Assembly: GCA_034414555.1 (NCBI GenBank)
Contig: DAOUMA010000008.1
Span: 78,560 to 142,559 of the forward strand
DNA from: Dehalococcoidia bacterium
Lineage (GTDB): Bacteria > Chloroflexota > Dehalococcoidia > GIF9 > AB-539-J10
DNA length: 64,000 nucleotides
Reading direction: 5' to 3'
This document shows positions 2,863 to 43,135 of this stretch, in pieces. The notes under the pieces were generated by a model, which saw nothing but the letters and a program-made list of their open reading frames with translations, was not told the DNA's origin and searched no databases. The number at the start of each line of letters is the position of its first letter. Position 1 is the first letter of the stretch. A program made the position numbers and the translations under genes.

Positions 2863-2913
2863 AAAATCCCTCTAAATCCCCCTTTAGAAAAGGGGGAGTA
2901 AGGGGGATTTGAC
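2863..2913. repeat. Palindromic hairpin repeat, copy 1 (aaatcccccttt agaaa agggggag taagggggattt)
   Basis: Internal inverted repeats. A second copy with the same ends lies at 3057-3120. Confidence 0.6.
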
Positions 2914-3056
2914 ATCCTAGGAAAAGCAAAACTCAAAAATCAAAGGGCAAAATGGCGGAGCAAAAATGAAAAAGCGGTCAGCGATTAGCTGAAGGCTGAT
3001 AGCTGAAAACTGCTAAACTGAACTTTGAATTTAGAGTATCCCGCATAACTTCGTAC

Positions 3057-3120
3057 AAAAATCCCTCTAAATCCACCTTTAGAAAAGGGGGTTCAACGCC
3101 CCCGTAAGGGGGATTTGACC
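3057..3120. repeat. Palindromic hairpin repeat, copy 2 (aatccctctaaatccaccttt agaaaaggggg ... gggggatttgacc)
   Basis: Shares aatccctctaaatcc and gggggatttgac termini with copy 1. Intergenic position. Confidence 0.6.
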
Positions 3121-3380
3121 ATTTGGGAAGCAGTGAGATCACAAATAGTTTCGTGACTAACTATAATTTGTCATTTTGCTTTTTTATCGGTGATGTTTAA
3201 TATTGTTCGGAATTTAGTGCTTTGAGTTTAGGATTTACCCGGGGACTGGCCTATTTCATATTCTATAGCAATATTGTCAGCCGGCGAATGGGGGTGTAAA
3301 ATAAATGCAGTACCTGGCGTAGAAGAGCCAGGATGTGCATATGGCTCATTGGCTTGTTGTGCCGGAGCTAAATATAGGAA

Positions 3381-26387: not shown

Positions 26388-27983
26388 TTAGTCTTTTTTC
26401 AACATTTCGGAAATCTCTTTCTTTAAAGCCATCTTATCCACCTTGCCATTGGACAAAAGAGGCAATAACTGGCGTATGAAGAATCTTTTGGGGACCTTAA
26501 AGTTGGCTAATTTGGATTTGCACAGGTCTCGCAATTCCTCTTCCGTCGTGGTTTTGCCAGGTATCAGCATGACAAAGGCCCACCCCACTTCCTGATAAAT
26601 TTCGTCAGACACCCCTATTACAGCAGCAAAGAGTATACTGTCATGTGATTCCAGTGTATCTTCTATCTCACGCGGATAGACATTTTCTCCGCCAGTTTTA
26701 AACATCTCAGACGCCCTCCCGGTGATATAGATGTATCCTCTCTTGTCCTTACGGGCGAGGTCAGAGGTATAATACCAGCCCTGTTCATCAATCACCTCGG
26801 CTGTGGCCTCTGGTTTATTGAAGTATCCTTTCATAAGGAAAGGACCCCTCACAGCGATCTCTCCTATCTTGCCATCCGGGAGTTCCCTGCGATTCTCATC
26901 CACAATCTTGAGCTCAAATGGTGGAGCAATCTTTCCGGCGCTCTTCATCACCGTTTCCATATCATCTCCTGCCTCGGTGTAAGTGACAAATCCCGCTACC
27001 TCAGTACTTCCATACCCGGTGAGTAATTTCGCACCGGTCTTTTTACAGATACTACTGAGCACATCAATCATGACTTTTGGTGCCGCAGCTCCAGCCCATA
27101 CAAATCCTTCGATGCTGCTGAAATCAGTGTTAAAAAAGTCAGGTTGTCTGAATTCTAACAGGAACATAACAGGGACCTGACCAAGTGCGGTTATGCGTTC
27201 CTTTTCTATTACCTTCAAAGTTGCAGCGGGGTCGAATTTGTCCATCAAAACGAGACAGCCACCTTGCATTATCGCAGCAACCCCTATCTCGGTATCAGCA
27301 GCTACATGATTTATGGGGAAATGCAGCAGTGCCCTGCTTGTCTCTGCAAAGTAAAACTTTTCCACCTCAACCTTTATGTTCTCAACAATGCTCTTGTGGG
27401 TATGAACCACACCTTTAGGCTTGCCTGTAGAACCAGAGGTGTACAATAAAAGGGCTTCATCGTCATCACTGACCTCAGATACCCGTTTTTCAAGGGCTTC
27501 ATTTAGCTCCTGTCTTGGTTTTTCGGTGAATTCTGCAAAACTCTCAGTGCCTTCAAATGCCTCACCGATAACAAGAACCTTCTTCAGGCCGGAAAATTCT
27601 TTTATCAAGGCCTTTATGTTTTCCGAAAGGTCATTGCCGAGGTATTCTCGAAGTGTGATGAGCATTGTGGGTTGGCTATCTCCAATCTGATACCGAAGCT
27701 CATCCAGGGTAAACTTGGGTGATAGGCCCAGCCATACGGCGCCAACCTTGCCGGCTGCCATGTAAGTGGTCAAGAATTCATTTCGTGCCATGGAAAGCAG
27801 GGCAACTCGGTCTCCCTTTTGCACCCCCACTTCAAGGTATGCCCTGGCTACACTGTCCATCTTTTTCTTGAAATCTCTCCAGGAAAGCCTCTCATCCTCA
27901 AACACGAGAGCTTCAGCCTCTGGTTTCTTTTCGGCCCATTTTTCCACAAAATGCCAGGCTCGAGTTAAGTCTTTCCAGCTCAT
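26388..27983 (-). CDS. AMP-forming acyl-CoA synthetase / fatty-acid-CoA ligase
   Basis: LLYTSGSTGKPKGV (AMP-binding P-loop) and the GYGSTE motif. Confidence 0.85.
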   Translation of the reverse strand: MSWKDLTRAWHFVEKWAEKKPEAEALVFEDERLSWRDFKKKMDSVARAYLEVGVQKGDRVALLSMARNEFLTTYMAAGKVGAVWLGLSPKFTLDELRYQIGDSQPTMLITLREYLGNDLSENIKALIKEFSGLKKVLVIGEAFEGTESFAEFTEKPRQELNEALEKRVSEVSDDDEALLLYTSGSTGKPKGVVHTHKSIVENIKVEVEKFYFAETSRALLHFPINHVAADTEIGVAAIMQGGCLVLMDKFDPAATLKVIEKERITALGQVPVMFLLEFRQPDFFNTDFSSIEGFVWAGAAAPKVMIDVLSSICKKTGAKLLTGYGSTEVAGFVTYTEAGDDMETVMKSAGKIAPPFELKIVDENRRELPDGKIGEIAVRGPFLMKGYFNKPEATAEVIDEQGWYYTSDLARKDKRGYIYITGRASEMFKTGGENVYPREIEDTLESHDSILFAAVIGVSDEIYQEVGWAFVMLIPGKTTTEEELRDLCKSKLANFKVPKRFFIRQLLPLLSNGKVDKMALKKEISEMLKKD

Positions 27984-27997
27984 ACTATCCTCCTTTT

Positions 27998-28933
27998 TTA
28001 TTTTTCCAGCCTTGCATAGCCATCGCTTATAGCCTTCTTCCCCTCAGCGTTTAGAACAACAAAGAACAGGTCTATGCCATCACTATTGTCGTCCTTTTTG
28101 ATAAGTTGCACCTTTATATTTGTCCCGGGCAAGACCATACTGCTAAATCGGCAATACAGGCATTTCAGTGTAAGCGGGTTTCCACCTGCTTCCCTGTTGA
28201 TAAGCTCGCGCACAGCATAGGCAAGGGTAGCTGTACCCTGTAAAATTCTTCCGGGAAGCCCTACTTGATGAGCAAACTTAACAGAGGTGTGTATTGGGAA
28301 AATGATTCTGGTACAGCCATCATATATAAATGAGGCAAGGGGTTCTATCGGGATAACCGATTCCCAGATGGGGACATTATCTCCGGTATGTCTGGGAACT
28401 CCGGGAAGAGCTTCTTCGCCTCTGCCCTCGTCGGTACACTCGACTCCTCGCAGCATACCTCCAATGTGCTCTGTGAAAACAGGTTTGCCTTCCTTATCGA
28501 AGGCATCAAGGCGGGTAACAATGTGAGTACCCGCCTTATGAGGCAGGATGGCGGCAATCTTGCCCTTTATGCTTAGCTCATCTCCTGGTGCTATCGGGCG
28601 ATAAAATTTCAGGTGCTCCGTATAATGTACCAGGGTGAATATAATCTCTTTGGGAAAATCCTGGACCTCGATGTAATCCCAGAATCTCTCAGATATTGGC
28701 CATGTCACCGCCACACTAAACATTGGAGGCGCAATGACCCCCTCTGTGCGCTCGTCATCCAGATAACAGGGATTATTATCACCGATAGCGGCGGCATAAT
28801 TCATGGTGTCACGCCAGGTTATCTCAGTTTTATAGTCTTTTAATCTAGCCCCGACGAACTTTGAAGAGACCTCCATTGTATCTCCTGCGCTTCTCATATT
28901 GTAGCTTGTTACGAATGTTATTGCATTTTTCAT
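27998..28933 (-). CDS. MaoC-like double hot-dog (R)-specific enoyl-CoA hydratase/dehydratase
   Basis: 311 aa. Hot-dog fold signatures. Adjacent to the acyl-CoA synthetase. Confidence 0.6.
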   Translation of the reverse strand: MKNAITFVTSYNMRSAGDTMEVSSKFVGARLKDYKTEITWRDTMNYAAAIGDNNPCYLDDERTEGVIAPPMFSVAVTWPISERFWDYIEVQDFPKEIIFTLVHYTEHLKFYRPIAPGDELSIKGKIAAILPHKAGTHIVTRLDAFDKEGKPVFTEHIGGMLRGVECTDEGRGEEALPGVPRHTGDNVPIWESVIPIEPLASFIYDGCTRIIFPIHTSVKFAHQVGLPGRILQGTATLAYAVRELINREAGGNPLTLKCLYCRFSSMVLPGTNIKVQLIKKDDNSDGIDLFFVVLNAEGKKAISDGYARLEK

Positions 28934-28991
28934 GCAATCTCAACCTGGTGAAGGTTGGAAGTCCTCTCTGAGCCTGAATACTGCCGGGGAA

Positions 28992-29037
28992 AATTTGGGG
29001 GTTAATAAACAATCTCTGTACAGAGATTGTTTATTAA
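28992..29037. repeat. Perfect 46-bp palindrome (gttaataaacaatctctgta|cagagattgtttattaac)
   Basis: Exact reverse-complement symmetry. It abuts the MITE-like element. Confidence 0.7.
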
Positions 29038-29174
29038 CCTATCCCCCTGACTCCCTTCCCTTAGCAAGGGAAGGGGGAGTGCAGGTAAGAGAGGGGTGAA
29101 ACCCCTCTCTATAAATCTCTTCCCTCTCCTTTGAAGGAGGGGGGATAAAGAGGGTGAGGTTAGTAAACACTCTC
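29027..29174 (+). repeat. Hairpin-rich, approximately 150-bp MITE/REP-like element, copy 1
   Basis: About 90% identical to the reverse complement of 37873-38027. Several internal stem-loops (cccttcccttagcaagggaaggg; gaggggtgaaacccctc; ctctcctttgaaggagag). Confidence 0.7.
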
Positions 29175-29318
29175 GGTACATCGTGTTGACAGAGAAGACG
29201 CCGTTATATTAAACTTCCATCTTTGACATGGGTTATTTTAACCAGCGAGAGACGTAAGTATGGGCACTTACATTTAGAGTGAGTGCCCTTATTTTTGTGC
29301 TTATTTAGAATGGAGGTT

Positions 29319-31526
29319 ATGATGTCACAAATTCCGGGAATTTTCTGGCTGGTGGTGATAGGCGGGGGTATAGGCATTATTTTTGCCTTACTCCTAATAA
29401 GGTATATCCTGCGCGCTGATTCGGGAACAGCAGCGATGCAGGATGTCAATGCCATGATCACGGAGGGTGCCTGGGCCTTCATCAGACGCCAATATTCCAC
29501 CATCGGCATAACTGCTGTTGTGGTAGCAGTGCTAATTGGCGTCCTGCTCGGCAAGCTGAGTAGCCCTGCAGAGCTGGAGATGCTGGGAGTGTCGGCTTTT
29601 GGCTTGGGGTGGAGAACGGCGGTTGCCTTTCTCGTCGGCGGTATGTGCTCCTGCGTTTCTGGAATTGTGGGCATGTGGATTGCGGTCAAGTCAAATGTTC
29701 GCTGTGCTGCTGCCTCTCATCATGGCTTAAATGCGGCTATAAGAGTAGCGCTGCGCGGTGGAGCAGTTTCTGGCTTTCTCATTGTTGCCTTGAGCTTGCT
29801 CGGAGTAACAGCAATATTTTTTGCCTTTGGAGGAGCTACTCATCCTGAAATTGCTCCTCACATTATTGTTGGTTTTGGTTTTGGTGCCAGTATGGTCGCC
29901 CTTTTCGCCCAGCTTGGCGGTGGTATCTACACCAAGGCTGCTGATATGGGCGCTGACCTTGCCGGTAAAGTTGAGGCGGGGATTCCTGAAGATGACCCCC
30001 GCAATGCCGCGGTAATTGCTGACCAGGTCGGTGATAATGTTGGTGACTGCGCTGGTCGTGGTGCCGACCTCTTTGAATCCACAGCAGCAGAAAACATCGG
30101 CGCCATGATAATAGGTGTGGCTTTGTATGCCATCTCCATAAAGGCGGGGGTTGCTCCGCTTGTCGCTGTGGGCTGGGTGCTCTTCCCGCTCATCATTCGT
30201 GGCTGCGGTATTGTTGCCAGCATGTTCGGCATTTTAGGCGTGCACAGCCGCAGCGAAGAAGAGGACCCTATGACTGCTCTCAACCGTGGCTATTTTATCG
30301 CCCTGGCTCTCTGTGCCGTGGCGATGTTTGCTATCTGCAAAGTGATGTTCAGCTCTATGTGCTCAGGATGGCTGTGGCTTATGGGGGCTGGTTTTGTTGG
30401 CATAGTAACCAGCGTAATTGTAGTCTATGTTACTCAGTATTACACTGAATCCAGATATAACCCGACAAGAAGTATTGCGGAAGCCTGCCGCACTGGTCCA
30501 GCGACCACCGTTGTTACCGGCTTGTCGGTGGGATTCGAGACCATCATGCCTACGGCGCTCATTATCTCTGTTGCTCTTGCGGTCACATATTGGTTTGGCA
30601 CACAATCAGGGTTAAACCTTCCCTGGTGGGTAGGCGGCGCTTACGGCACTGCAGTAGCTACCATGGGTATGCTGATGACCTGTCCCTTCATTCTGGCTGA
30701 AGATACTTTTGGTCCGATAACCGACAATGCCAACGGAATCAACGAGTTCACTCACGCCGGTGGCGAGATAAGGCGAGTTACCGACCATCTTGATGCTACC
30801 GGCAATACCACCAAAGCTCTAACCAAGGGATATGCCATGGTATCGGCAGGACTGGCTGGCTTCCTTCTCTTTCAAGCTTACTTTGACAGGGTCCTGCTCT
30901 TTCAAGGCAAGGCGGGAGTGCCGTTCAGTATAGACCTTGTTTTTCCTGAGGTTCTTATTGGCGCTATTCTTGCCATCATGATGGTCTTTCTTTTCAGCTC
31001 CTGGGGGCTTAGGTCAGTAGGAAAGGCAGCAAGTGGGATTATTGAAGAAGTGCGTCGTCAAATCAAGGCTGACCCTGGCATAATGGCGGGAACCTCAAGA
31101 CCCAATTATGGCCGGGCAGTCGACATTACTACAAAGGCAGCATTAAAGGGAATGGTTGCCCCGGGATTGCTTCCCGTGCTTCTCCCCATAGTTATTGGAG
31201 TCGCCTTTAGATTCATACCAGGCTACAATGCTCCTATGGCAGTAGGTGCCTTCCTTATGGTAGGTACTTTCTCTGCTATTCTTATGGCTTCCTTCATGAA
31301 TAACGGTGGCGGTGCCTGGGATAATGCCAAGAAGTATATCGAGGATGGGCAACTCAAGGATGAAGCTGGGAATGTCATCCTCAAAGGTTCACCGATACAC
31401 GCTGCTGGTGTCGTTGGTGACACTGTTGGTGACCCTCTTAAAGACACCGTGGGGCCTTCATTACATATTGTAGCTAAGCTTATAGCTACGGTAACACTGG
31501 TGCTTTGTCCCCTGTGGATTATTTAG
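29319..31526 (+). CDS. hppA: Membrane-bound proton/sodium-translocating pyrophosphatase
   Basis: GGG.AL..Q / DNVGDCAGRGADLFES / GDTVGDPLKD signature motifs. Many TM helices. Likely start MMSQ at 29319-29322 after a GGAGG SD. Confidence 0.9.
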   Translation: MMSQIPGIFWLVVIGGGIGIIFALLLIRYILRADSGTAAMQDVNAMITEGAWAFIRRQYSTIGITAVVVAVLIGVLLGKLSSPAELEMLGVSAFGLGWRTAVAFLVGGMCSCVSGIVGMWIAVKSNVRCAAASHHGLNAAIRVALRGGAVSGFLIVALSLLGVTAIFFAFGGATHPEIAPHIIVGFGFGASMVALFAQLGGGIYTKAADMGADLAGKVEAGIPEDDPRNAAVIADQVGDNVGDCAGRGADLFESTAAENIGAMIIGVALYAISIKAGVAPLVAVGWVLFPLIIRGCGIVASMFGILGVHSRSEEEDPMTALNRGYFIALALCAVAMFAICKVMFSSMCSGWLWLMGAGFVGIVTSVIVVYVTQYYTESRYNPTRSIAEACRTGPATTVVTGLSVGFETIMPTALIISVALAVTYWFGTQSGLNLPWWVGGAYGTAVATMGMLMTCPFILAEDTFGPITDNANGINEFTHAGGEIRRVTDHLDATGNTTKALTKGYAMVSAGLAGFLLFQAYFDRVLLFQGKAGVPFSIDLVFPEVLIGAILAIMMVFLFSSWGLRSVGKAASGIIEEVRRQIKADPGIMAGTSRPNYGRAVDITTKAALKGMVAPGLLPVLLPIVIGVAFRFIPGYNAPMAVGAFLMVGTFSAILMASFMNNGGGAWDNAKKYIEDGQLKDEAGNVILKGSPIHAAGVVGDTVGDPLKDTVGPSLHIVAKLIATVTLVLCPLWII

Positions 31527-31582
31527 AATTAGACTATAGCAAACTTTTTAAGAAGTCTGGCATGGTGCTAAAATAAAGCATC

Positions 31583-34459
31583 ATGCCAGATGCCATATTT
31601 ATCAAAGGTGCCAGGGAGCACAATCTTAAGAATATAGACGTCGTCATTCCCCGGAATAAGCTGGTGGTCATCACCGGTGTTTCCGGAAGTGGCAAGAGCT
31701 CGCTGGCTTTTGACACCATATATGCTGAGGGGCAACGCCGCTATGTGGAGTCCCTTTCCGCCTATGCCCGACAGTTTCTGGGGCAGATGGAGAAGCCTGA
31801 CGTGGATTATATTGAAGGGCTTAGCCCGGCCATCTCGATTGACCAAAAAGGACCGCCGCACAATCCCCGTTCCATTGTGGGCACCATTACTGAAATCTAT
31901 GATTATTTGAGGCTTCTCTTTGCCCGCATCGGGCATCCTCACTGCCTTCAATGTGGGCGAGAGATTTCTCGTCAGACAGTGCAGCAAATTGTAGATTCGG
32001 TGAACAAAATACCCGAGGGCAGCCGAATTATGATACTCGCCCCGCTGGTCAGGGACCGTAAGGGCGAGCATCAGGGAATATTCCGGGATTTGCAGAAAGC
32101 GGGCTTTGTCCGTGTCAGGGTCGATGGCGAAATTCATGACCTTTCTGAAGAATTCCAGCTTGATAAATATAAAAAGCATTCCATTGAAGTAGTGGTTGAT
32201 CGGTTGCAGGTAGGTGGAACGGAGAATGCCAGTCGGCTGGCCGATTCCGTTGAGACAGCGCTAAAGCTGGGCTCAGGTATAGTACTAATCTCCATTATCG
32301 ATGGCGAGGAGCGGCTTTTCTCGGAGCATTTTGCCTGTCCTTATTGCAACGTCAGTCTGGGGGAAATTGCCCCACGAACTTTCAGCTTCAATAGTCCCCA
32401 TGGTGCCTGTCCTGCCTGCACTGGACTGGGCTGTAACCTGGAAATCGACCCTGGCTTTGTCATTCCTGATAAAGAGCTAAGCCTGGCGGAAGGTGCTATC
32501 CAGCCGTGGGGTCGGAGTGGGCAGATGAGCACCTGGTATGGTAGCATACTTGAAGCTCTAGCTCACCGCCATGGCTTTTCTCTGGATACGCCGGTTAGGG
32601 AGCTAAGTGCAGACCAGCTCCACCTGATACTTTATGGTGATGGCGGCGAAACTGTTCCCGCAGTTTATGAAGACCACTATGGTCACTTCCGACATTATTA
32701 CACTGAGTTTGAAGGCGTTATCCCTCATCTGGAGCGTCGTTATAAAGAGACTGAATCCGATAACGTTAAAACAGCCATTGAGAGGTACATGTCGTCCACT
32801 CCCTGTCCAGTATGCCATGGAAAGAGACTTAAGCCGGAATCTTTAGCGGTCACCATCATGGGGGACAACATCATGGATGTTACCGATATGTTTGTTACCC
32901 AGGCTCTAGAATGGGTAGACAGACTTGTGGACGAGATTACCCCTCGTGAGCTTACCATAGCCCGCCAGATCATCAAGGAGCTCCATGCTCGTTTAAATTT
33001 CCTCGTTGATATCGGGTTGGGCTATTTAACCCTGGGCAGAGCTTCATCAACCCTGAGTGGCGGTGAGGCGCAAAGAATTCGCCTGGCTACCCAGATTGGC
33101 AGTGGATTAATCGGTGTTCTCTACATCTGCGATGAGCCCACAGTGGGGCTGCATCCTGCCGATGGCTCCCGGCTAATAACAACGCTAAAGTACCTCAGGG
33201 ATTTAGGCAATACTGTGATTATTGTGGAACATGATGAAGCGGTGATGAAGGCTGCCGACTACATCATTGATATGGGACCTGGTGCGGGGAAGCAGGGAGG
33301 GGAAATCGTGGCTACAGGGCAGATTAGCGATATTATGAGCTGTCCCCAATCGATAACCGGGCAATATTTAAGTGGGGTGAAGGAAATCCCCATGCCTCAG
33401 TGCCGGCGTCCCGGTTCAGGGAAGGAACTGGTGATTAAGGGAGCTAGAGAGAATAACTTGAAGAGCATCGATGTCCACATTCCTCTGGGCAAGTTTGTTT
33501 GCATCACCGGCGTTTCGGGAAGCGGTAAAAGCACTCTTATTGGTGAGGTGTTATACAAAAAGCTGGCACAGTTGTTTTACCGGGCTAAAGACAGACCAGG
33601 TAAGTGCGAGGGCATTATTGGCATTGAGCATATTGATAAGGTGATTAACATTGACCAGTCACCGATAGGTCGCACACCGCGGAGCAATCCCGCCACCTAT
33701 ACCGGGACATTTACCCCTATTCGTGAACTCTTTGCCTCTGTTCCTGAAGCAAGGATGCGTGGTTACCCAGCAGGGCGGTTTTCGTTCAACGTAAAAGGGG
33801 GGAGGTGTGAAGCCTGTCAGGGAGCCGGTTATGTTCAAATCGAGATGCAGTTCCTTCCCAATGTCTCCGTCCCCTGTGACATATGCAAAGGGAAACGATA
33901 TAACCGTGAGGCACTGGAGATTAAATTTAAGGGGAAGAACATTGCTGAAATTCTGGAGCTGACTGTGGATGAAGCTCTGGAATTTTTCGACCATTTCCCC
34001 CAGGTTAAGCGGAAGCTGGAAACTCTCAAGGATGTCGGTCTGGGGTATATTTGTTTGGGGCAGCCAGCACCTACTCTTTCTGGTGGTGAGGCGCAGCGGG
34101 TGAAATTAGCTACTGAGCTCTCACGTCGTTCCACGGGCAAAACGCTCTATATACTTGACGAACCAACTACCGGCCTTTCCTTCCCCGATGTTGCCGCTCT
34201 TCTTCAAGTGCTGCAGCGGTTGGTTGATTACGGCAACACGGTCATCATTATTGAGCACCATCTGGATGTAATCAAAAACACTGACTGGGTTATTGACCTT
34301 GGTCCCGGAGCCGGTGACGAAGGAGGCTACATTGTAGCTACTGGTACACCGGAGGAAATAGCCGGGGCAGAGGGCTCCTTTACTGGTAATTATCTTCGTG
34401 GTATGCTATCATCGGTATACCACCACGAGCGAACCAAGGCAAATTCAATTAAGCTATGA
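31583..34459 (+). CDS. uvrA: Excinuclease ABC subunit A
   Basis: Two ABC ATPase modules ([12 protein letters not shown]...; [10 protein letters not shown]...) and zinc-finger Cys clusters. 958 aa. Confidence 0.95.
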
Positions 34460-35004
34460 ACAGGAGAGAGATTCTGAATTCGGTCAGAGCTAATGTTCAA
34501 GATGAAAACACCGTGAAACATATGCTGGCTACCGAGGCGATCATGCGCGCCCTGGCAAAAAGGCTCGGTGAAGATGAGGAGGAGTGGGGACTTACCGGGC
34601 TGCTGCACGATATAGACACGGAGCTGGTTGAAAATGACCTTAATACTCATGGTAAGTTAGGGGCTGACATTGCTGAGGAGCTCGGGGCTACTGAGGAAAT
34701 GGCTCATGCTATACTATGTCATAACGAAGCTCTCGGCGTTTCCAGGAAAATGAAGCTGGATAAAGGGCTCTTCTGTGTTGACCCCCTGACCGGGCTCATC
34801 ACTGCCTCTGCTCTAGTCCGTCCTGATAAACTGGGTGGACTGACCACTAAATCGGTGATGAAACACTTTCGTCAGCCAAGATTTGCTGCTGGAGCTAACC
34901 GAGAACAAATTGCTCAATGCAGCGAGCTCGGTCTTGAGCTGGAGGAATTCATCACTTTGGGCATTGAGGCAATGAAGGGCATCTCCTCAGAGCTGGGATT
35001 GTAA
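34456..35004 (+). CDS. HD-domain (HDIG-type) phosphohydrolase
   Basis: LLHDID motif. 182 aa. The start overlaps the uvrA stop. Confidence 0.65.
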
Positions 35005-35045
35005 TATCGCGGTCTTCCATAATAATTAGAGCAAATCAGGTTCCC

Positions 35046-35825
35046 ATGGGAAAATCGGAAATTGTGTATCTTGCCTTAATTCCTCTGGCTGTCCCTGAAA
35101 CAAGTCTCGTAGAAAAAGTAGCCGACATTATCGGGAAAGACCCTTACGGGACGAGGCTTCTCCTTGCCGGGAAGGTACCCAGGATAGTTGCTTATTACGA
35201 TAGTAAGCAGATGGCAGAGTCAGTCACCCAGGAGCTAAGGGATTTAGGACTTCTGCCGATTTTGTGCACAGATTCAGAGCTTTGCTGCTCTTCGGAAGGT
35301 TTTATCGCACACACTCTGGAATTGGAACAGGGATACGTTCTATTCTATGACCGAGGCGGGCAAAAACGGGAGGTGAAATCCGAGGACGTTTTCTTGATTA
35401 TCAAGGGCGGAAGGGAAACTTATGTAGTCAAGGAGAAGACTGAAATCACCAAGAAGTTTAGCCTGAGTATGACTATTTTAATGAATGGGATACCTATGTG
35501 GCGCACGGAAAAGAAACGAGTCAAGGTGATGTCCCCGACAACGGAATATTTTGCCCGGCTTTATACCCCAGAATCATCGGAGCCTGTGGTGAAGATATTC
35601 CACACTCAGATGGATTATTCATTCTTAAAAGGGGAAATGGCTTCTTCGTCCCTGGCAAATTTTAATATCGTGGTTACCAAGCTGCAACAAGCATTTCCTG
35701 GAGCGATTTTTGATGACAATTTGATGCGTGCCTCGATAAAGCAGCCTTACACACCCAGCGCTGTCGATGATGCTGAAATCAACTGCAAACTCCTCTATTT
35801 ACAATATCTAGCACTAAGGTCATAG
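35046..35825 (+). CDS. Hypothetical protein
   Basis: 259-aa ORF in an operon-like position after the HD-domain gene. No motif recognised. Confidence 0.4.
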   Translation: MGKSEIVYLALIPLAVPETSLVEKVADIIGKDPYGTRLLLAGKVPRIVAYYDSKQMAESVTQELRDLGLLPILCTDSELCCSSEGFIAHTLELEQGYVLFYDRGGQKREVKSEDVFLIIKGGRETYVVKEKTEITKKFSLSMTILMNGIPMWRTEKKRVKVMSPTTEYFARLYTPESSEPVVKIFHTQMDYSFLKGEMASSSLANFNIVVTKLQQAFPGAIFDDNLMRASIKQPYTPSAVDDAEINCKLLYLQYLALRS

Positions 35826-36089
35826 ATGCCAGAAGTTTTCTTCACTTAGCCTCTGTCGTGAATATTTAACAAGCTAGTGGATTGTTATTTTCCTTATACC
35901 GTATATATAGTCATTTGCGAAAATGGTTACACAAAAGTCATTGCGAGGCAGATGAAGTCAGCCGAAACAATCTTGGAAGTGGCAACGAGATTGCCACGCT
36001 TCGCTCGCAATGACCGGTAAAATTGTGTAGTGATTTATGCGGTTAACTATAAATGCAAGAATGAGAGGCCCTTTACTCTGTATTTAAGG

Positions 36090-37709
36090 TTATCCTTTTA
36101 ACTCGCCGGTAGCATACATCTTCCTCAGTTCTATTTTGTCGAATTTCCCGACGCTTGTCTTCGGTATTCCATCCATGAACACAAATTTGTCTGGTATCCA
36201 CCATGAGACCTTAACCTTGCCTTGTAGAAACTCTTTTAATTCATCCCCAGTCACAGTCTCACCTAGTCGGGGTACCACGCATGCCAGCGGCCTCTCCTGC
36301 CATTTAGGATGTGGAACCCCGATGACAGCAGCCTCTAGAACCTTTGGATGAGCCATTATGGCATCTTCAAGGTCAACCGATGATATCCACTCACCTCCAC
36401 TCTTAACCAGGTCCTTTGTCCGGTCCACAAGTCTCACATATCCCTCCTCATCTATGGTACCTACATCACCAGTGTGCAGCCATCCTCCTTCAAATGCAGG
36501 CTTGGAGCGCTCGGGGTCCTTGTAGTACTCTTTGGCTATCCATGGTCCTCTGAGCAATATCTCTCCCCATTCCTTGCCATCCCATTTGACCTCTTCACCC
36601 TTGTCGTTAACTAGCTTTATCTCAAGCCCCGCGGCAAGAAGCCCTCCGCTGGCTTTCACGTCATAGAGTTTATCCATAGGCCAGTCAGCCATGTAGCTTT
36701 TTGGTAAAGCTGCAGTGGCAAGTGGTGAGGTCTCGGTCATTCCGTATGCCTGCACGATTGGGAAGTTATATTTTTCGTTCAATCCTTCCATAAGATACCT
36801 CGGGACGGCTGATCCTCCGCTGAATATAGCCTTAAGTGATGAAAAGTCATGCCATCCACCTTTTTCCAGGTAATCATAGAGCATCATCCATATAGTGGGC
36901 ACTCCTGCGGTAAAGGTCACTTTTTCATCCGCTATTATCCGGCACAGCTTTTCCATGTTCAGCACTTCTCGTCCTGGAAAAACTTGCTTGCATCCTACCA
37001 GCATCCCGACAAAAGGGCCACCCCAGGCATTTGCATGGAACATGGGCACTATATGCAGTATGCAAGCATCTTCTGAACCTCCAAGTGTCACGGCTGCTGC
37101 GTAACTGTGTAATACAAGTCCCCTGTGTGTATACACAACCCCCTTAGGGTCACCGGTAGTTGCCGAGGTATAGCAGATAAAGGCAGGGTCCCACTCATCG
37201 AGGTCTTCCGGGAAATCGTAGGATTCCGGAAATTGTGAAATCAGTTCGTCATATAAACATACGGGTGAAATACTTGTCTCGGGGAGTTTACCGCTCTGAG
37301 ATAGGATGACAAATTGTTTGACCGTTTTTAACTGGTCCTTAATAGCCTCTATCAAGAATAGGAGATCCTCGTCTACAAACATAACCTTGTCCTCAGCATG
37401 GTTTATTATATAGACCATATGATGCTGGGGAAGCCTGGGGTTCACAGTATGGAGCACAGCCCCGATACACGGTACACCGAAGTAGAGTTCCATGTGCCGG
37501 TGGTTATTGAGGGCGAAGCTGGCTACTCTGTCTCCCTTTTTTACCCCCAGTGATTTCAGGGCATGAGCTAACTGACATGTCCTTTTAAAATAGTCTGCAT
37601 AGGTATAGCGGAAGGTCTCATTTGGATATGATGAGACAAGTTCTTTCTTTGGGAAAAATTTTGCAACTCTCAAAAGAAAAGTCCTCAGCAATAGCGGATA
37701 TTCCATCAT
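36090..37709 (-). CDS. AMP-forming acyl-CoA synthetase (medium/long-chain fatty-acid-CoA ligase-like)
   Basis: YTSATTGDPKGVVYTH AMP-binding motif and GYGMTE. Confidence 0.8.
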   Translation of the reverse strand: MMEYPLLLRTFLLRVAKFFPKKELVSSYPNETFRYTYADYFKRTCQLAHALKSLGVKKGDRVASFALNNHRHMELYFGVPCIGAVLHTVNPRLPQHHMVYIINHAEDKVMFVDEDLLFLIEAIKDQLKTVKQFVILSQSGKLPETSISPVCLYDELISQFPESYDFPEDLDEWDPAFICYTSATTGDPKGVVYTHRGLVLHSYAAAVTLGGSEDACILHIVPMFHANAWGGPFVGMLVGCKQVFPGREVLNMEKLCRIIADEKVTFTAGVPTIWMMLYDYLEKGGWHDFSSLKAIFSGGSAVPRYLMEGLNEKYNFPIVQAYGMTETSPLATAALPKSYMADWPMDKLYDVKASGGLLAAGLEIKLVNDKGEEVKWDGKEWGEILLRGPWIAKEYYKDPERSKPAFEGGWLHTGDVGTIDEEGYVRLVDRTKDLVKSGGEWISSVDLEDAIMAHPKVLEAAVIGVPHPKWQERPLACVVPRLGETVTGDELKEFLQGKVKVSWWIPDKFVFMDGIPKTSVGKFDKIELRKMYATGELKG

Positions 37710-37872
37710 GGCAATTCACCTCCTTATGTTCTATTTTGAGGCATTATAAAGGTTCTAGCTATGGTGATGTCAAGGTAGAACGGAATTTTTGGCTCTACGT
37801 GATATGTCTGCCACCCCTGTACCTGGCATTCATTCAGCCTTGAGTAAATTGTGAGGATATTTCATGTTCAAT

Positions 37873-38027
37873 GAGAGTGTTTACTAACCTCACCCCCTTT
37901 ATCCCCCTCTCCTTCAAAGGAGAGGGGGAAGAGATTTAAAAGAGGGGTGAAACCCCTCTCTTACCTACACTCCCCCTTCCCTTGCTAAGGGAAGGGGGTC
38001 AGGGGGATGGGTTGCTGAACAATCTCC
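37873..38027 (-). repeat. Hairpin-rich, approximately 150-bp MITE/REP-like element, copy 2 (inverted relative to copy 1)
   Basis: The reverse complement aligns end-to-end with 29027-29174. Confidence 0.7.
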
Positions 38028-38104
38028 TAAATGTCGTTTCCTTTCGCCTTGGGCAAGAACTATAATAACCCGATATTCAGTTGAGCAATATGCGGCAGGA
38101 GTGA

Positions 38105-38665
38105 TTGAAAATGCGAGTTACAAATAGAGAGGTTGCTTTTGACGGAAAGTATCTGCAAGTGGTGAGGAAATATTTTAACACAGATGCGGGTGGGGAAGGC
38201 GTTTGGGAAGCGGTGGAAAGGAAAAACATATATGGTAAAGGGGCAGTGGTAATTGTCGCTTTAACTAGAAAGGGAGAATTAATTCTGGAAAGAAACTGGA
38301 GAGTTCCCATAGAAGCCTTCGTTATCCAATTTCCTGCCGGGCTCACCGACAGAGAGGGGGAAAGCGAGGAGGAAACTGCACGGAGGGAACTTTTAGAGGA
38401 GACAGGCTACAGGGCAGAGAGGCTCATTCCAATCATCTCAGTGCCGATATCCCCGGTGTTAACTTCCACCAGGTCAACTCATTTCTTTGCCCCTGAGGCT
38501 GAGTTTGTGGGGAAAAGGAAAAAAGAAATCGGCGAGGCAATTGAGGTTTTAACAGTCCCGCGGGATAAGATAAGCGATTTTTTGCTGAACCTTCCTCAGG
38601 ATACCGAACTGGACCTTAGAGTTCCGGGCATACTATGGATTTTAGAAAAGCGGGGGCTGATTTAA
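38105..38665 (+). CDS. NUDIX hydrolase
   Basis: Nudix box GLTDREGESEEETARRELLEETGY. Confidence 0.8.
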   Translation: MKMRVTNREVAFDGKYLQVVRKYFNTDAGGEGVWEAVERKNIYGKGAVVIVALTRKGELILERNWRVPIEAFVIQFPAGLTDREGESEEETARRELLEETGYRAERLIPIISVPISPVLTSTRSTHFFAPEAEFVGKRKKEIGEAIEVLTVPRDKISDFLLNLPQDTELDLRVPGILWILEKRGLI

Positions 38666-38766
38666 AAATTTTGTCTGCCTCCTACAAGCCTTGATTCTTA
38701 ACTCTTGTGTTATAATGTCTTTAAGTTCGATGCCTTGAGGATTGTCTGAAGGCAAGAGGGTATGCA

Positions 38767-39309
38767 GTGGGCTGTGTTGTGGTAAGTAAAGGCAAGGCGC
38801 AAACTATGAAGAGATCACTCGAGGCTTACCTTGATATTGAGACCACCGGGTTATCTTCCTTTTTTGATGCCATAACCGTGATTGGCATTTATCGCTGTGA
38901 TGGCATTGTTGGCGAGGTTATTCAATTGGTGGACGAGGAAGTAACCAGCGATAACCTTCTCAAAACCCTTGAAGGCGTGAATACGATTTATACCTATAAT
39001 GGCAGCAGATTCGATTTTCCTTTCATTTATACTGCTCTGGGCATAGACCTTGAGATTAGGTTTCAGCATCATGACCTCATGTATGACTGCTGGGATAACA
39101 ATCTATATGGAGGTCTTAAGGGAGTGGAGCAACAACTGGGCATTCCCAGGCAGCTGCAAGGTATCTATGGAGTGGATGCGATAGAGTTGTGGTGGAGATA
39201 TAAAATCGACCATGACCAGGATGCCCTGGCTTTGCTGTTGGAATATAATAAAGAAGATGTAGTAAATTTGAAAGCTCTGAGGGAGAGGCTGGTCCTGAAA
39301 TCAAGGTAG
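38767..39309 (+). CDS. Predicted RNase H-like 3'-5' exonuclease (YprB/COG3359-like)
   Basis: AYLDIETTGL exo I motif. 180 aa. The true start may be the internal Met (MKRSLEAYLDIETTG). Confidence 0.55.
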   Translation: MGCVVVSKGKAQTMKRSLEAYLDIETTGLSSFFDAITVIGIYRCDGIVGEVIQLVDEEVTSDNLLKTLEGVNTIYTYNGSRFDFPFIYTALGIDLEIRFQHHDLMYDCWDNNLYGGLKGVEQQLGIPRQLQGIYGVDAIELWWRYKIDHDQDALALLLEYNKEDVVNLKALRERLVLKSR

Positions 39310-40002
39310 GAGATATTCCATGATTTCCGTCAAGCGGTGAATTCGGGGGCAATTGGTAATTTCGGGGAAGGAGTCATTACGGTCAATAAGCACTGCTTTC
39401 ATACCAACGCCGCGGGCACCAACGATATCTAAATCATATTGGTCACCGACATATATTGCCTCTTCAGCGTTAACCTGAGCTCTTTCCAGCGCCGCTAAAA
39501 ATATCCCGGGACGTGGTTTGTCATAGCCTACTTCAAAAGAGGTTACCTGGAAATCAAGATAAGGTTGTAGCCCTAAATTCTGGCATATTGTGGTAGTATC
39601 CTGTCCGACATTGGATATTATTCCCAGAATGAAGTTGCGTTCCTTGAGCAATTTTAAGGTGGGCAGGGCATCATCATAAAGCTTGAATTTCAAGCCATCC
39701 GGGAATACCTTCATTAGTATTTGAGCCATGGTGTCGCGGCTAACCTCCAGCCCAGCTCCTCTTAAGATTGTGAGCCCATATTCAACATAGGCAGCATTTT
39801 TTTCCTTTGGTGGTCTTTTACCTATTGGAGAACGATAATTTTCCTCCCGCCACCAGACATCAGCCTGGGGAAGGGATTTACGGAGTGCTCCAGGAGATAC
39901 CTCAAGCCCAACCTCATGACAGGCTGTGGCATATACCTCTTCGCGAGGAGGCTGATAGTGCGCTAAAGTTTCGTGTAAATCAAAGCAAACCGCTTTAATC
40001 AT
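39301..40002 (-). CDS. HAD-superfamily hydrolase
   Basis: N-terminal VCFDLHETL (DxD/T motif I) and later GDQYDLD. Confidence 0.8.
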   Translation of the reverse strand: MIKAVCFDLHETLAHYQPPREEVYATACHEVGLEVSPGALRKSLPQADVWWREENYRSPIGKRPPKEKNAAYVEYGLTILRGAGLEVSRDTMAQILMKVFPDGLKFKLYDDALPTLKLLKERNFILGIISNVGQDTTTICQNLGLQPYLDFQVTSFEVGYDKPRPGIFLAALERAQVNAEEAIYVGDQYDLDIVGARGVGMKAVLIDRNDSFPEITNCPRIHRLTEIMEYLLP

Positions 40003-43061: not shown

Positions 43062-43135
43062 TGGCTGGGGATCCAGGATTCGAACCTGGCCTAACTGATC
43101 CAGAGTCAGTCGTCCTACCGCTAGACTAATCCCCA
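43062..43135 (-). tRNA. tRNA-Gln (anticodon CUG), CCA encoded
   Basis: Manual fold of the reverse complement. 7-bp acceptor stem (U1:A72-type first pair), D stem GUCU/GGAC, anticodon stem ACUGA/UCAGU with loop CU-CUG-GA, T arm CCAGG-UUCGAAU-CCUGG, discriminator G, CCA. Confidence 0.85.

What the first reader, a model, noticed from the sequence alone, without database searches (positions are those of the whole stretch)
28992..38027. Inverted pair of approximately 150-bp hairpin-rich MITE/REP-like elements bracketing an 8.7-kb block (hppA-uvrA-HD-hyp-ACS), plus an adjacent perfect 46-bp palindrome
The elements at 29027-29174 and 37873-38027 are reverse complements of each other at about 90% identity. 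Each contains at least three internal stem-loops.

They lie in non-coding DNA immediately flanking a block that includes the essential repair gene uvrA. Copy 1 overlaps a perfect palindrome (28992-29037, 19-bp arms). Inverted repeats of this size can mediate inversion of the intervening segment. They could also be a dispersed MITE family or regulatory or terminator structures.
Basis: seen in the sequence. Interest (0 to 1): 0.55.

Follow-up and report, generated by a model that had tools for sequence, protein, structure and literature searches.

The report
Two MITE copies in Dehalococcoidia DNA
The two inverted ~150-bp hairpin-rich elements are real and are two separate copies of a small, apparently undescribed non-coding mobile element (a MITE) found in many uncultured Dehalococcoidia genomes; nothing shows that they flip or move the genes between them.

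Summary
Copy 1 (29023-29174) and copy 2 (37873-38026) are reverse complements at about 90% identity, and each has three GC-rich hairpins.

Each copy also has its own 17-bp terminal inverted repeats (GAGAKTGTTTAYTAACC). The "perfect palindrome" is 29000-29039 (20-nt arms, no spacer). It is a truncated extra element end abutting copy 1 across TGTACA.

A truncated scan of species-representative genomes found the terminus about 85 times in at least 40 Dehalococcoidia/Chloroflexota MAGs, on 11-13 contigs in single MAGs. 23 of 45 complete elements carry AT-rich 5-9-bp target-site duplications, against 1.5% in a shuffled control. Copy 1 has GTACA.

Each window copy is closer to copies in other MAGs (93.5% and 96.8%) than to the other window copy (89.7%). 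They are therefore independent insertions, not a local duplication.

Both copies lie between divergently transcribed genes and upstream of the putative promoters, so a terminator or mRNA role is unlikely.

There is no shared duplication around the 9-kb block and no recombinase nearby. Inversion could not be tested, and no partner transposase was found.

Across the family, ends sit 0-17 bp upstream of outward-facing -35-like TTGAC hexamers far more often than a null predicts.

Verdict: a new member of a known kind (MITE), of moderate interest.

The parts
29023..29174 (-). MITE copy 1 (152 nt). The A end is at the right (29158-29174) and the B end at the left (29023-29039). Three internal hairpins lie at 29051-29077, 29088-29110 and 29120-29145.
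   Evidence: It is 93.5% identical to copies in other MAGs (L051, L070).
37873..38026 (+). MITE copy 2 (154 nt). The A end is at the left (37873-37889) and the B end at the right (38010-38026, one mismatch to the family's B-end consensus). Hairpins lie at 37902-37929, 37937-37963 and 37972-37998.
   Evidence: It is 96.8% identical to L114 (MAG MNYD01). No clear target-site duplication was found.
28983..29016 (+). Truncated extra element end. The 17-nt terminus at 29000-29016 is followed by an A-end-like C-run/AT/C-run remnant. It forms the left arm of the perfect palindrome 29000-29039.
   Evidence: exact terminus match on the - strand at 29000-29016; I4. The same geometry occurs in L091, and an outward AGATTG lies at offset 7 in 3 of 75 ends.
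29017..29022 (.). Left copy of copy 1's target-site duplication (TGTACA). It is also the 6-bp spacer of the end-to-end junction and the centre of the palindrome.
   Evidence: GTACA is repeated at 29176-29180. The sequence is visible.
29175..29180 (.). Right copy of copy 1's target-site duplication (GGTACA; 5 of 6 bases identical to the left copy).
29186..29215 (+). Promoter-like site for hppA (TTGACA-N18-TAAACT, 10 of 12). Its -35 hexamer starts 11 nt outside the A end of copy 1.
   Evidence: A family-wide association of element ends with outward TTGAC is shown.
28915..28943 (-). Promoter-like site for the divergent MaoC-type dehydratase gene (TTGAGA-N17-TAACAT, 9 of 12). That gene's start was called at 28876 in an independent contig.
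   Evidence: (L199 gene-1032 maps to window 28876).

Best explanation
[quoted passage not shown] The family is widespread in uncultured Dehalococcoidia (Chloroflexota).

**Anatomy (shown).** A canonical copy is 152-157 bp and has:
- 17-bp terminal inverted repeats (GAGAKTGTTTAYTAACC), extended by C-run subterminal sequence to about 33 bp;
- two distinguishable ends: A (...AACCTCACCCCCTTTATCCCCC) and B (...AACCTATCCCCCTGACCCCC);
- three GC-rich hairpin cassettes in between.

Other family members keep the termini but carry different or additional cassettes (84-418 bp).

**Mechanism (inferred).**
- A transposase encoded elsewhere binds the termini and inserts the element into AT-rich intergenic DNA. 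This creates a 5-9-bp duplication.
- Insertions are found preferentially a few bp upstream of -35 hexamers, and occasionally right next to a resident element end.
- The end-to-end case explains the 40-bp perfect palindrome at copy 1. There, a truncated older end and copy 1's B end abut across the duplicated TGTACA.
- The two arms have since become identical, possibly by sequence conversion.

**Meaning of the arrangement (inferred).**
- The inverted orientation of the two copies and their bracketing of hppA-uvrA-HD-hyp-ACS are incidental. Each copy simply occupies one of two neighbouring divergent-promoter intergenic regions.
- At these two sites the elements act, if at all, as DNA, because they lie upstream of the putative promoters on both sides.
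For: **Termini and structure**
- The terminus occurs 5 times in the window against 0.57 expected. Terminus pairing and the hairpins are kept in 20 aligned copies.

**Copy number and distribution**
- A truncated genome scan returned 113 stretches. About 85 come from at least 40 Dehalococcoidia/Chloroflexota MAGs, with 11 contigs in MNYD01 and 13 in CAZYZL01.
- The remaining ~26 stretches come from other taxa, which is consistent with random occurrences of a 17-mer (about 280 expected by my arithmetic for the whole 596-Gb collection; the scan was cut short).
- 0.89 Mb of unrelated metagenome loci contained no family hit.
- 20+ copies are 82-96% identical to the window copies over their full length.

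**Target-site duplications**
- 23 of 45 complete elements have direct repeats of at least 5 bp at their flanks, against 1.5% in a shuffled-pair control.
- The duplications are 78% A+T, against 52-56% in the background.
- Copy 1 is flanked by GTACA.

**Independent insertions**
- Each window copy has 9-10 closer relatives in other MAGs than the other window copy.

**Repeat behaviour in the source organism**
- Logan contigs carrying identical genes end inside the elements, at window 29029, 37901, 37983 and 37987.

**Position**
- All complete elements are intergenic or nearly so, with no orientation bias relative to genes.
- Both window copies lie between divergent genes.

**End-to-end junction**
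- The geometry recurs in L091.
- An outward AGATTG lies at offset 7 in 3 of 75 ends, with 5 occurrences in total against about 0.5 expected and none in the reverse orientation.
- IS30 is documented to insert next to its own inverted repeats, forming IR-IR junctions with sequence conversion (PMC9333248).
Against: - No transposase gene bounded by these termini was found in about 0.7 Mb of fetched Dehalococcoidia loci or in the window.
- No empty (pre-insertion) site or presence/absence polymorphism could be shown.
- Copy 2 has no recognisable duplication.
- Duplication length is variable (5-9 bp), and 22 of 45 elements show none of 5 bp or more.
- Within the window's own genome only 2 full copies and 1 remnant are directly seen. 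The multi-copy state there is inferred from contig breaks.
- The stems barely vary among canonical copies: 4 of 56 pairs have a both-sides change. Structure conservation therefore cannot be separated from recent common descent.
Confidence: 0.8

Rival explanations
1. The elements are host-domesticated structural DNA elements of the REP/BIME or Correia type. In this reading their main role here is architectural or regulatory at the DNA level.

Possible roles include:
- cruciform-forming supercoil sinks or insulators between divergent promoters;
- AT-rich termini acting as UP-element-like sequences just upstream of -35 hexamers.

This is compatible with an origin as a mobile element.
For: - Both copies sit exactly between divergent promoter-like sites.
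- An outward-facing TTGAC lies 0-17 nt from 18 of 75 element ends, against 1 of 75 in the reverse orientation.
- It lies within 12 nt of 11 of 21 reconstructed insertion sites, against a 4.6% null (p = 4e-10).
- Folding as DNA is very stable.
- The termini are conserved across many species while the interiors vary.
- Correia elements and BIMEs have such documented roles (PMC3184786).
Against: - The -35 hexamers lie outside the duplications, in pre-existing DNA, and occur at both A and B ends equally. This fits target choice or tolerance of insertions rather than a function carried by the element.
- About a third of ends face gene 3' ends.
- No expression or binding data exist.
- The null used for the promoter association does not model selection against insertions elsewhere.
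Confidence: 0.1
2. The inverted pair is a functional unit. Either it is a recombination substrate that inverts the 8.7-kb hppA-uvrA-HD-hyp-ACS block, or it forms the ends of a MITE-flanked composite transposon that moves the block.
For: - The two copies are inverted, about 150 bp long and 90% identical. Their outer ends are both B ends, so they form a formally valid terminal pair.
- MITE pairs that mobilise integrons are documented (PMC3184786).
- Short-read contigs break inside both copies, so they cannot exclude the alternative orientation.
Against: - No direct repeat flanks the whole unit: the outer flanks are ...CTCTGTACA and CTAAATGTC....
- Copy 1 has its own duplication at its own two ends.
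- The longest identical run between the copies is 29 nt, which is poor for RecA-mediated exchange.
- No invertase, integrase or transposase is among the neighbouring genes.
- The cargo is housekeeping genes whose composition matches the flanks.
- Pairs of elements flanking ordinary genes such as lexA or purA occur elsewhere simply because each intergenic region can hold one copy.
Confidence: 0.04
3. The elements function as RNA, for example as transcription terminators or attenuators, mRNA-stabilising hairpins, or a structured small RNA.
For: - Predicted RNA folding is very stable.
- Many bacterial repeats such as BOX, ERIC and BIME act when co-transcribed (PMC3049150).
- Across the family, some copies lie just after gene 3' ends.
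Against: - At both window sites the flanking genes diverge.
- The promoter-like sites lie outside the element ends, so the elements are probably not transcribed.
- No U-tract terminator signature lies within either element.
- No Rfam family reaches threshold; the best match scores 26 bits against a gathering score of 57.
- Hairpin loops occur in both orientations among copies. That argues against a strand-specific RNA.
Confidence: 0.04
4. The adjacency is an assembly artefact. The contig would have been joined wrongly at a multi-copy repeat, so the block is not really bracketed as shown.
For: - All independent short-read contigs of the same organism stop inside the repeats.
- Only the window's own assembly therefore supports the joins across the copies.
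Against: - The elements themselves are real and are found intact inside many contigs of other MAGs, with unique flanks on both sides.
- Copy 1's duplication GTACA is present on both of its flanks in the window, as expected for a genuine contiguous insertion.
- A second, 20-50 kb contig carrying the adjacent AMP-binding gene is on record, but its DNA was not returned.
Confidence: 0.02

Closest known systems
Bacterial MITEs in general (for example RUP, Nezha, MITEAba12, IMU), as reviewed in PMC3184786
   Same: - Less than 200 bp and non-coding.
- Terminal inverted repeats and target-site duplications.
- Many dispersed intergenic copies.
- A highly base-paired predicted fold.
   Different: - There is no sequence relationship to any of them that I could find.
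- The host clade is new (uncultured Dehalococcoidia).
- The element is GC-rich rather than AT-rich, because of its C/G-run hairpins.
- The parent IS is unknown.
- Duplication length is variable (5-9 bp).
BOX elements of Streptococcus pneumoniae (boxA-boxB(n)-boxC; PMC3049150)
   Same: - Modular build: conserved terminal modules that pair with each other.
- A variable set and number of internal hairpin modules that fold independently.
- A wide size range.
   Different: - The sequence is unrelated.
- The internal modules here are several different cassettes, not tandem copies of one boxB.
- The termini are clear 17-bp inverted repeats with duplications.
- At the two window sites the elements are probably untranscribed.
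Correia elements (CREE/NEMIS) of Neisseria (PMC3184786; PMC3049150 background)
   Same: - About 100-155 bp with terminal inverted repeats.
- Intergenic and frequently next to promoters.
- Present in full-length and internally deleted variants.
   Different: - From my own knowledge, Correia elements duplicate TA, carry an IHF site and contribute promoter hexamers themselves.
- Here the duplications are 5-9 bp and the -35 hexamers lie in the flanking DNA, not in the element.
IS30 'IR-targeting' and IR-IR junctions (PMC9333248)
   Same: - The 40-bp palindrome is an element end abutting the opposite-type end of a second, truncated copy across a short spacer.
- The two arms are identical, as if converted.
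- IS30 inserts next to its own inverted repeats, makes only IRL-IRR junctions, and shows sequence conversion.
   Different: - From my own knowledge, the IS30 junction spacer and duplication are 2 bp; here they are 5-6 bp.
- No IS30-family transposase was found.
- The resemblance is one of geometry only.
REP/BIME elements and their RAYT transposases
   Same: - GC-rich palindromic units clustered in intergenic DNA.
- Mosaic combinations of units.
   Different: - REPs lack terminal inverted repeats around the cluster and lack target-site duplications.
- No conserved GTAG-type head was seen in the sequences read.
- No RAYT was seen.

Membership tests
MITE (miniature inverted-repeat transposable element) | Small size (usually under 200 bp, up to about 400-500 bp) with no transposase gene | tested here: met
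   The copies are 152 and 154 bp. No ORF of 80 aa or more lies inside either copy. The family ranges from 84 to 418 bp.
MITE (miniature inverted-repeat transposable element) | Terminal inverted repeats | tested here: met
   The 17-bp terminus GAGAKTGTTTAYTAACC is present at both ends of both copies. The terminal pairs are kept in 18-20 of 20 aligned copies.
MITE (miniature inverted-repeat transposable element) | Target-site duplications flanking the copies | tested here: met
   23 of 45 complete elements have direct repeats of at least 5 bp, against 1.5% in a shuffled-pair control. Copy 1 has GTACA. Copy 2 has none recognisable.
MITE (miniature inverted-repeat transposable element) | Many dispersed copies within one genome | tested here: met
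In the window's own organism the state is inferred: 2 copies plus 1 remnant in 64 kb, and contig breaks inside each copy.
MITE (miniature inverted-repeat transposable element) | Termini shared with an autonomous IS whose transposase acts in trans | tested here: inconclusive
   No transposase gene bounded by these termini was found in the fetched loci. Pairs of termini 1-4 kb apart enclose housekeeping genes such as lexA, purA, dapA, MatE and a Mur ligase. ISfinder was not available.
MITE (miniature inverted-repeat transposable element) | Presence/absence polymorphism (empty sites) in related genomes | not testable with these tools
   The closest hppA relative in metagenome contigs is 66% identical and shows no synteny.
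REP/BIME | Isolated or clustered 20-40-nt imperfect palindromes without terminal inverted repeats or target-site duplications | tested here: not met
   Terminal inverted repeats and duplications are present.
REP/BIME | Association with a RAYT (IS200/IS605-like tyrosine transposase) gene flanked by the repeats | not tested
   No RAYT turned up among the ORFs scanned, but no systematic search was possible.
Correia element | TA target-site duplication and promoter hexamers carried by the element | tested here: not met
   The duplications are 5-9 bp. The -35-like hexamers lie outside the duplications, in flanking DNA.
Composite transposon or programmed invertible segment | A single target-site duplication flanking the whole two-element unit | tested here: not met
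   The outer flanks (...CTCTGTACA| and |CTAAATGTC...) share no repeat. Copy 1 carries its own duplication.
Composite transposon or programmed invertible segment | A site-specific recombinase or transposase gene within or next to the segment | tested here: not met
   Pfam scans of the 10 ORFs from 26388 to 40002, plus the precomputed Pfam domains listed for the genes downstream of 40002 on L117, show none.
Composite transposon or programmed invertible segment | Both orientations, or another location, observed in a population or in relatives | not testable with these tools
   Short-read contigs end inside the repeats. No syntenic relatives were found.
Intrinsic terminator | A GC-rich hairpin followed by a U tract at the 3' end of a gene | tested here: not met
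   The consensus scan finds no terminator-like site inside either element. All four flanking genes point away from the elements.
Any Rfam RNA family | A covariance-model score at or above the family's gathering threshold | tested here: not met
   Only a tRNA elsewhere in the window passes. The best sub-threshold match on copy 1 scores 26.4 bits against a gathering score of 56.8.

The most novel reading that the evidence does not exclude
The family is a previously undescribed, cassette-swapping MITE lineage of Dehalococcoidia. Its unknown transposase would choose targets actively rather than randomly.

- **Promoter-proximal targeting.** It would insert into the AT-rich 5-9 bp lying only 0-8 bp upstream of sigma-70-type -35 hexamers. 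That places each AT-rich terminus in UP-element position.
- **End targeting.** It would also insert next to resident element ends or end-like sequences (GAGATTG), producing end-to-end junctions like the 40-bp palindrome.
- **Horizontal spread.** Near-identical copies (up to 96.8%) in MAGs that each represent a different species would then reflect recent horizontal spread among lineages.

If true, this would be a bacterial example of promoter-proximal targeting by a DNA transposon. It would also be a natural system that repeatedly rewires the sequence upstream of promoters in very compact genomes.
Probability: 0.3. Interest if true: 0.6.

Novelty: new member of a known kind. Interest (0 to 1): 0.35.

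Why it matters
Dehalococcoidia are abundant, mostly uncultured subsurface and sediment bacteria with small, compact genomes. I found no description of interspersed repeats or MITEs for them in the searchable literature.

A defined MITE family with a 17-bp diagnostic terminus has several uses:
- It explains why their metagenome assemblies fragment at specific intergenic sites.
- It gives a marker for strain typing and for detecting horizontal exchange.
- It points to an active, still unidentified transposase.

If the association of insertion sites with the DNA just upstream of -35 hexamers reflects target choice, it would be an unusual property for a bacterial transposon. It would also bear on how promoters evolve in streamlined genomes.

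For the specific locus, the practical message is negative. The bracketing of uvrA and hppA is coincidental, and nothing indicates a mobile or invertible repair-gene cassette.

Tried and rejected
1. **Partner transposase.**
   - I examined all pairs of termini 0.7-5 kb apart in the fetched loci and scanned the enclosed ORFs with Pfam and NCBIfam. They are housekeeping genes (LexA, adenylosuccinate synthetase, DHDPS, MatE, a Mur ligase, an IstB-like ATPase) plus one unknown 485-aa ORF with no transposase features.
   - All-against-all clustering of ORFs from the loci found only paralogous metabolic genes: enoyl-CoA hydratases, DegV, ABC ATPases.
   - ORFs next to solitary termini are read by eye as GatB and a phosphoglycerate mutase-like protein, among others.
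2. **Synteny or empty-site test.** An hppA-based scan of metagenome contigs gave at most 66% identity and no shared gene order. Exact-protein look-ups returned only three samples of the same organism, all with contigs broken at the repeats.
3. **Orientation bias relative to genes.** None was found: A end 19 gene starts and 14 stops, B end 16 starts and 6 stops.
4. **Covariation support for the hairpins.** The canonical copies are too similar; only 4 of 56 pairs show a both-sides change.
5. **Rfam.** No hits at the gathering threshold or at permissive thresholds.
6. **Phage vector.** The A-end pattern is absent from 2.9 million viral contigs.
7. **Literature.** No paper combines Dehalococcoidia with MITE, and none contains the terminal sequences.
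8. **An element split by a 1.9-kb insertion (L028).** Rejected; it looks like two partial elements flanking an ordinary gene.
9. **integron attC site or CRISPR.** Considered from the sequence only and dropped. There are no R'/R'' core sites and no regular spacing.
Full report
**1. The observation**

- The window holds two reverse-complementary elements at 29023-29174 and 37873-38026.
- The repeat finder reports arms of 86 nt (90% complementary) and 35 nt (97%), joined by a more variable middle. A pairwise alignment shows that identity stops exactly at those borders.
- In a 20-copy family alignment the two copies are 89.7% identical, and their longest identical run is 29 nt.
- Chance is excluded. 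The 25-nt hairpin-1 module occurs 3 times against 0.00 expected. The 17-nt terminus occurs 5 times against 0.57 expected.
- Each copy folds into three GC-rich hairpins closed by pairing of its two ends. The z-scores are -7.8 and -7.2 as RNA and -9.8 and -7.2 as DNA, and no shuffle folds as well.
- The "perfect palindrome" is real but sits at 29000-29039, with two 20-nt arms and no spacer.
- Pfam confirms the gene content of the block: H+-PPase 29283/29319-31526, UvrA 31583-34459, an HD protein 34456-35004, a 259-aa protein with no Pfam match 35046-35825, and an AMP-binding enzyme 36090-37709 on the - strand.

**2.

- Each element has its own terminal inverted repeats, GAGAKTGTTTAYTAACC. In the window they lie at 29023 (+), 29158 (-), 37873 (+) and 38010 (-). 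A fifth, solitary copy lies at 29000-29016 (-).
- The two ends can be told apart.
  - The A end continues TCACCCCCTTTATCCCCC.
  - The B end continues TATCCCCCTGACCCCC.
- Copy 1 runs B to A on the + strand, and copy 2 runs A to B.
- The left arm of the palindrome is a truncated A-end-like remnant (about 28983-29016). It abuts copy 1's B end across TGTACA.
- GTACA is repeated at the other end of copy 1 (29176-29180). This is copy 1's target-site duplication.
- The palindrome is therefore a head-to-tail end-to-end junction between an old, mostly deleted copy and copy 1.
- Copy 1's B end reads ...TTTATTAACC, like the remnant, rather than the family's usual B-end ...TTTAGCAACC. This suggests that the two arms have been homogenised.

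**3. Census**

- The terminus pattern was scanned against one genome per species of bacteria and archaea.
- About 85 stretches come from at least 40 MAGs labelled Dehalococcoidia, Dehalococcoidales or Chloroflexi. They include 11 contigs of MNYD01 (Dehalococcoidia bacterium CG2_30_46_19) and 13 of CAZYZL01.
- The roughly 26 hits in other phyla have unrelated interiors. That is in line with random occurrences of a 17-mer: my arithmetic gives about 280 chance matches for the whole 596-Gb collection, of which the truncated scan saw only part.
- In the Chloroflexota hits the terminus is followed by the same C-run subterminal sequence and hairpin cassettes.
- More than twenty copies match the window copies over their full length at 82-96% identity.
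- As a negative control, 0.89 Mb of unrelated metagenome loci contained no family hit.
- Many hits lie at contig ends.
- In the window's own organism, independent short-read (Logan) contigs with identical genes end inside the elements, at window positions 29029, 37901, 37983 and 37987. That is the behaviour of a multi-copy repeat.
- The window's organism is most likely itself a member of the Dehalococcoidia. Its UvrA is 72% identical to that of a Dehalococcoidales MAG, and a second repeat family is shared with MNYD01.

**4. Evidence for transposition**

- 23 of 45 complete elements (two termini 60-700 bp apart) are flanked by direct repeats of at least 5 bp. When left and right flanks are paired at random the figure is 1.5%.
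- The duplications are 5-9 bp (mode 6-7) and 78% A+T, in loci that are 52-56% A+T.
- Each window copy is closer to copies in other MAGs than to the other window copy.
  - Copy 1: 93.5% to L051 and L070.
  - Copy 2: 96.8% to L114.
  - Copy 1 to copy 2: 89.7%.
- The two copies are therefore independent insertions, not a local duplication.
- The family is modular. The same termini enclose different numbers and kinds of hairpin cassettes (84-418 bp).
- A roughly 110-bp subfamily with a quite different interior occurs at four or more distinct loci.
- I found no autonomous partner. Pairs of termini 1-4 kb apart simply flank housekeeping genes.

**5. Where the elements sit**

- All complete elements are intergenic or nearly so, with no A/B orientation bias relative to neighbouring genes.
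- Both window copies lie between divergently transcribed genes.
  - Copy 1 lies between the MaoC-type dehydratase gene (start 28876 according to an independent gene call) and hppA.
  - Copy 2 lies between the AMP-binding gene and the NUDIX gene.
- The hppA promoter-like site (TTGACA-N18-TAAACT, 29186-29215) begins 11 nt outside copy 1's A end.
- A MaoC promoter-like site lies at 28943-28915.
- For copy 2 the consensus scan finds no promoter-like site. By eye there is a TTGAAC-N17-TTTACT next to its A end and a TATAAT downstream of its B end.
- The elements are therefore probably not transcribed here. They also have no U-tract terminator signature.

**6. A family-wide pattern in target sites**

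- An outward-facing TTGAC lies 0-17 nt beyond 18 of 75 family ends. The reverse orientation occurs at 1 of 75.
- A and B ends are affected equally, and all the flanks are different loci.
- In 11 of 21 reconstructed pre-insertion sites the hexamer lies within 12 nt of the duplicated sequence. The figure is 4.6% for AT-rich intergenic 7-mers in the same loci (p = 4e-10).
- Several of these look like complete promoters, for example TTGACA followed at about 17 nt by TATAAT in L028.
- Two explanations remain open.
  - The transposase prefers the AT-rich DNA just upstream of promoters.
  - In these compact genomes only such insertions are tolerated.
- I cannot separate the two explanations.
- Separately, an outward AGATTG (the start of the terminus) occurs at offset 7 from 3 of 75 ends. 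There are 5 occurrences in total against about 0.5 expected, and none in the reverse orientation.
  - The window palindrome and L091 share this geometry.
  - It resembles the documented insertion of IS30 next to its own inverted repeats, which creates IR-IR junctions and sequence conversion (PMC9333248).
  - The resemblance is one of geometry only.

**7. The block between the copies**

- No evidence makes the pair a functional unit.
  - No direct repeat flanks the whole 9-kb unit.
  - Copy 1 has its own duplication.
  - No recombinase or transposase gene is nearby.
  - The cargo is housekeeping genes with the same composition as the flanks.
  - Similar pairs flank ordinary genes elsewhere.
- Homologous recombination between the copies would invert the block, but the longest identical run is only 29 nt.
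- Orientation polymorphism could not be tested. The closest hppA relatives are 66% identical and not syntenic, and the short-read contigs stop inside the repeats.
- For the same reason, only the window's own assembly supports the joins across the repeats. The matching GTACA on both flanks of copy 1 argues that at least that join is genuine.

**8. Comparison with known elements**

- The family meets the defining features of a MITE as listed in PMC3184786 and PMC3049150: small size, no transposase gene, terminal inverted repeats, target-site duplications, many copies and a strong fold.
- The link to a parent IS remains open.
- Its modular build is most like the pneumococcal BOX elements (boxA-boxB(n)-boxC).
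- Its size and its position near promoters recall Correia elements. However, the duplications are not TA, and the promoter hexamers are not carried by the element.
- It is not a REP/BIME, because it has terminal repeats and duplications.
- No Rfam family matches.
- No paper in the searchable library mentions the terminal sequences or MITEs in Dehalococcoidia.

**9. Verdict**

- The finding is real and is best described as two independent copies, plus one remnant, of an apparently undescribed Dehalococcoidia MITE family.
- It is a new member of a known kind.
- The inversion, composite and terminator readings are unsupported.
- The most interesting residue is the tight association of insertion sites with the DNA immediately upstream of -35 hexamers and with element-end-like sequences. 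This deserves a proper test in closed genomes.

Noticed in passing
window 2863-2913 and 3058-3120 (wider unit 3030-3216): A second small palindromic repeat (AAAATCCCTCTAAATCCMCCTTTAGAAAAGGGGG...GGGGGATTTGAC) is present as two direct copies 195 nt apart. The 187-nt stretch 3030-3216 is 85-86% identical to L070 1792-1980 and L114 7139-7325, both from MAG MNYD01. A second dispersed family is therefore shared with that MAG.
   Followed up: partly
window 29262-29298: A terminator-like hairpin (GGGCACTTACATTTAGAGTGAGTGCCC) followed by TTATTTTTGT lies inside the hppA leader. It sits between the predicted promoter (29186-29215) and the start codon (29319). It could be an attenuator or riboregulator of the H+-pyrophosphatase gene. 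There is no significant Rfam match.
   Followed up: no
window 29098-29100 versus 37949-37951, and alignment A3 columns 84-88 and 131-133: The hairpin loops are inverted between copies while the stems stay the same. Hairpin 2 reads TTTCA or TGAAA (also CTTTG or CAAAG), and hairpin 1 reads GCT or AGC. Both forms occur within single MAGs. The two window copies carry the same loop on the + strand although the elements are inverted. This is a flip-flop typical of palindrome-templated switching.
   Followed up: partly
L013 1246-1356, L045 2901-3008, L093, L103 1913-2024, L106; also L021, L081, L089: A roughly 110-bp subfamily has the same termini but a different interior (GCTCGTGGTGAGC...GAACCATGAGCGG, GCCCTTCGACAGGCTCAGGGCGAAC). 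It sits 22 nt upstream of a conserved gene start (MKELIEGAGKLG..., which I read as rsmG-like without running a test) at the same locus in five MAGs. It also occurs at three unrelated loci.
   Followed up: partly
family-wide: 75 element ends in L004-L116 and the window: An outward-facing -35-like TTGAC lies 0-17 nt from 18 of 75 ends, against 1 of 75 in the reverse orientation. It lies next to 11 of 21 reconstructed insertion sites, against a 4.6% null. The first five flanking positions are 68-81% A+T.
   Followed up: yes
L028 570-2324 (- strand): A 91-aa ORF and a 485-aa ORF in series are separated by a single stop. Neither has a Pfam or NCBIfam match. They are flanked on both sides by partial elements of the family. 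This may be one gene with a recoded or erroneous stop.
   Followed up: partly
window 26388-27983 and 36090-37709 (both - strand): Two paralogous AMP-binding (acyl-CoA synthetase-type) genes lie 8 kb apart. One is just outside copy 1's side and the other is just inside copy 2. Several other short paralogous matches occur in the window (for example 19340/24385, 46673/49074 and 347/6894).
   Followed up: no
window 43065-43135 (- strand): This tRNA gene is the only Rfam match in the window at gathering threshold (63.2 bits).
   Followed up: no
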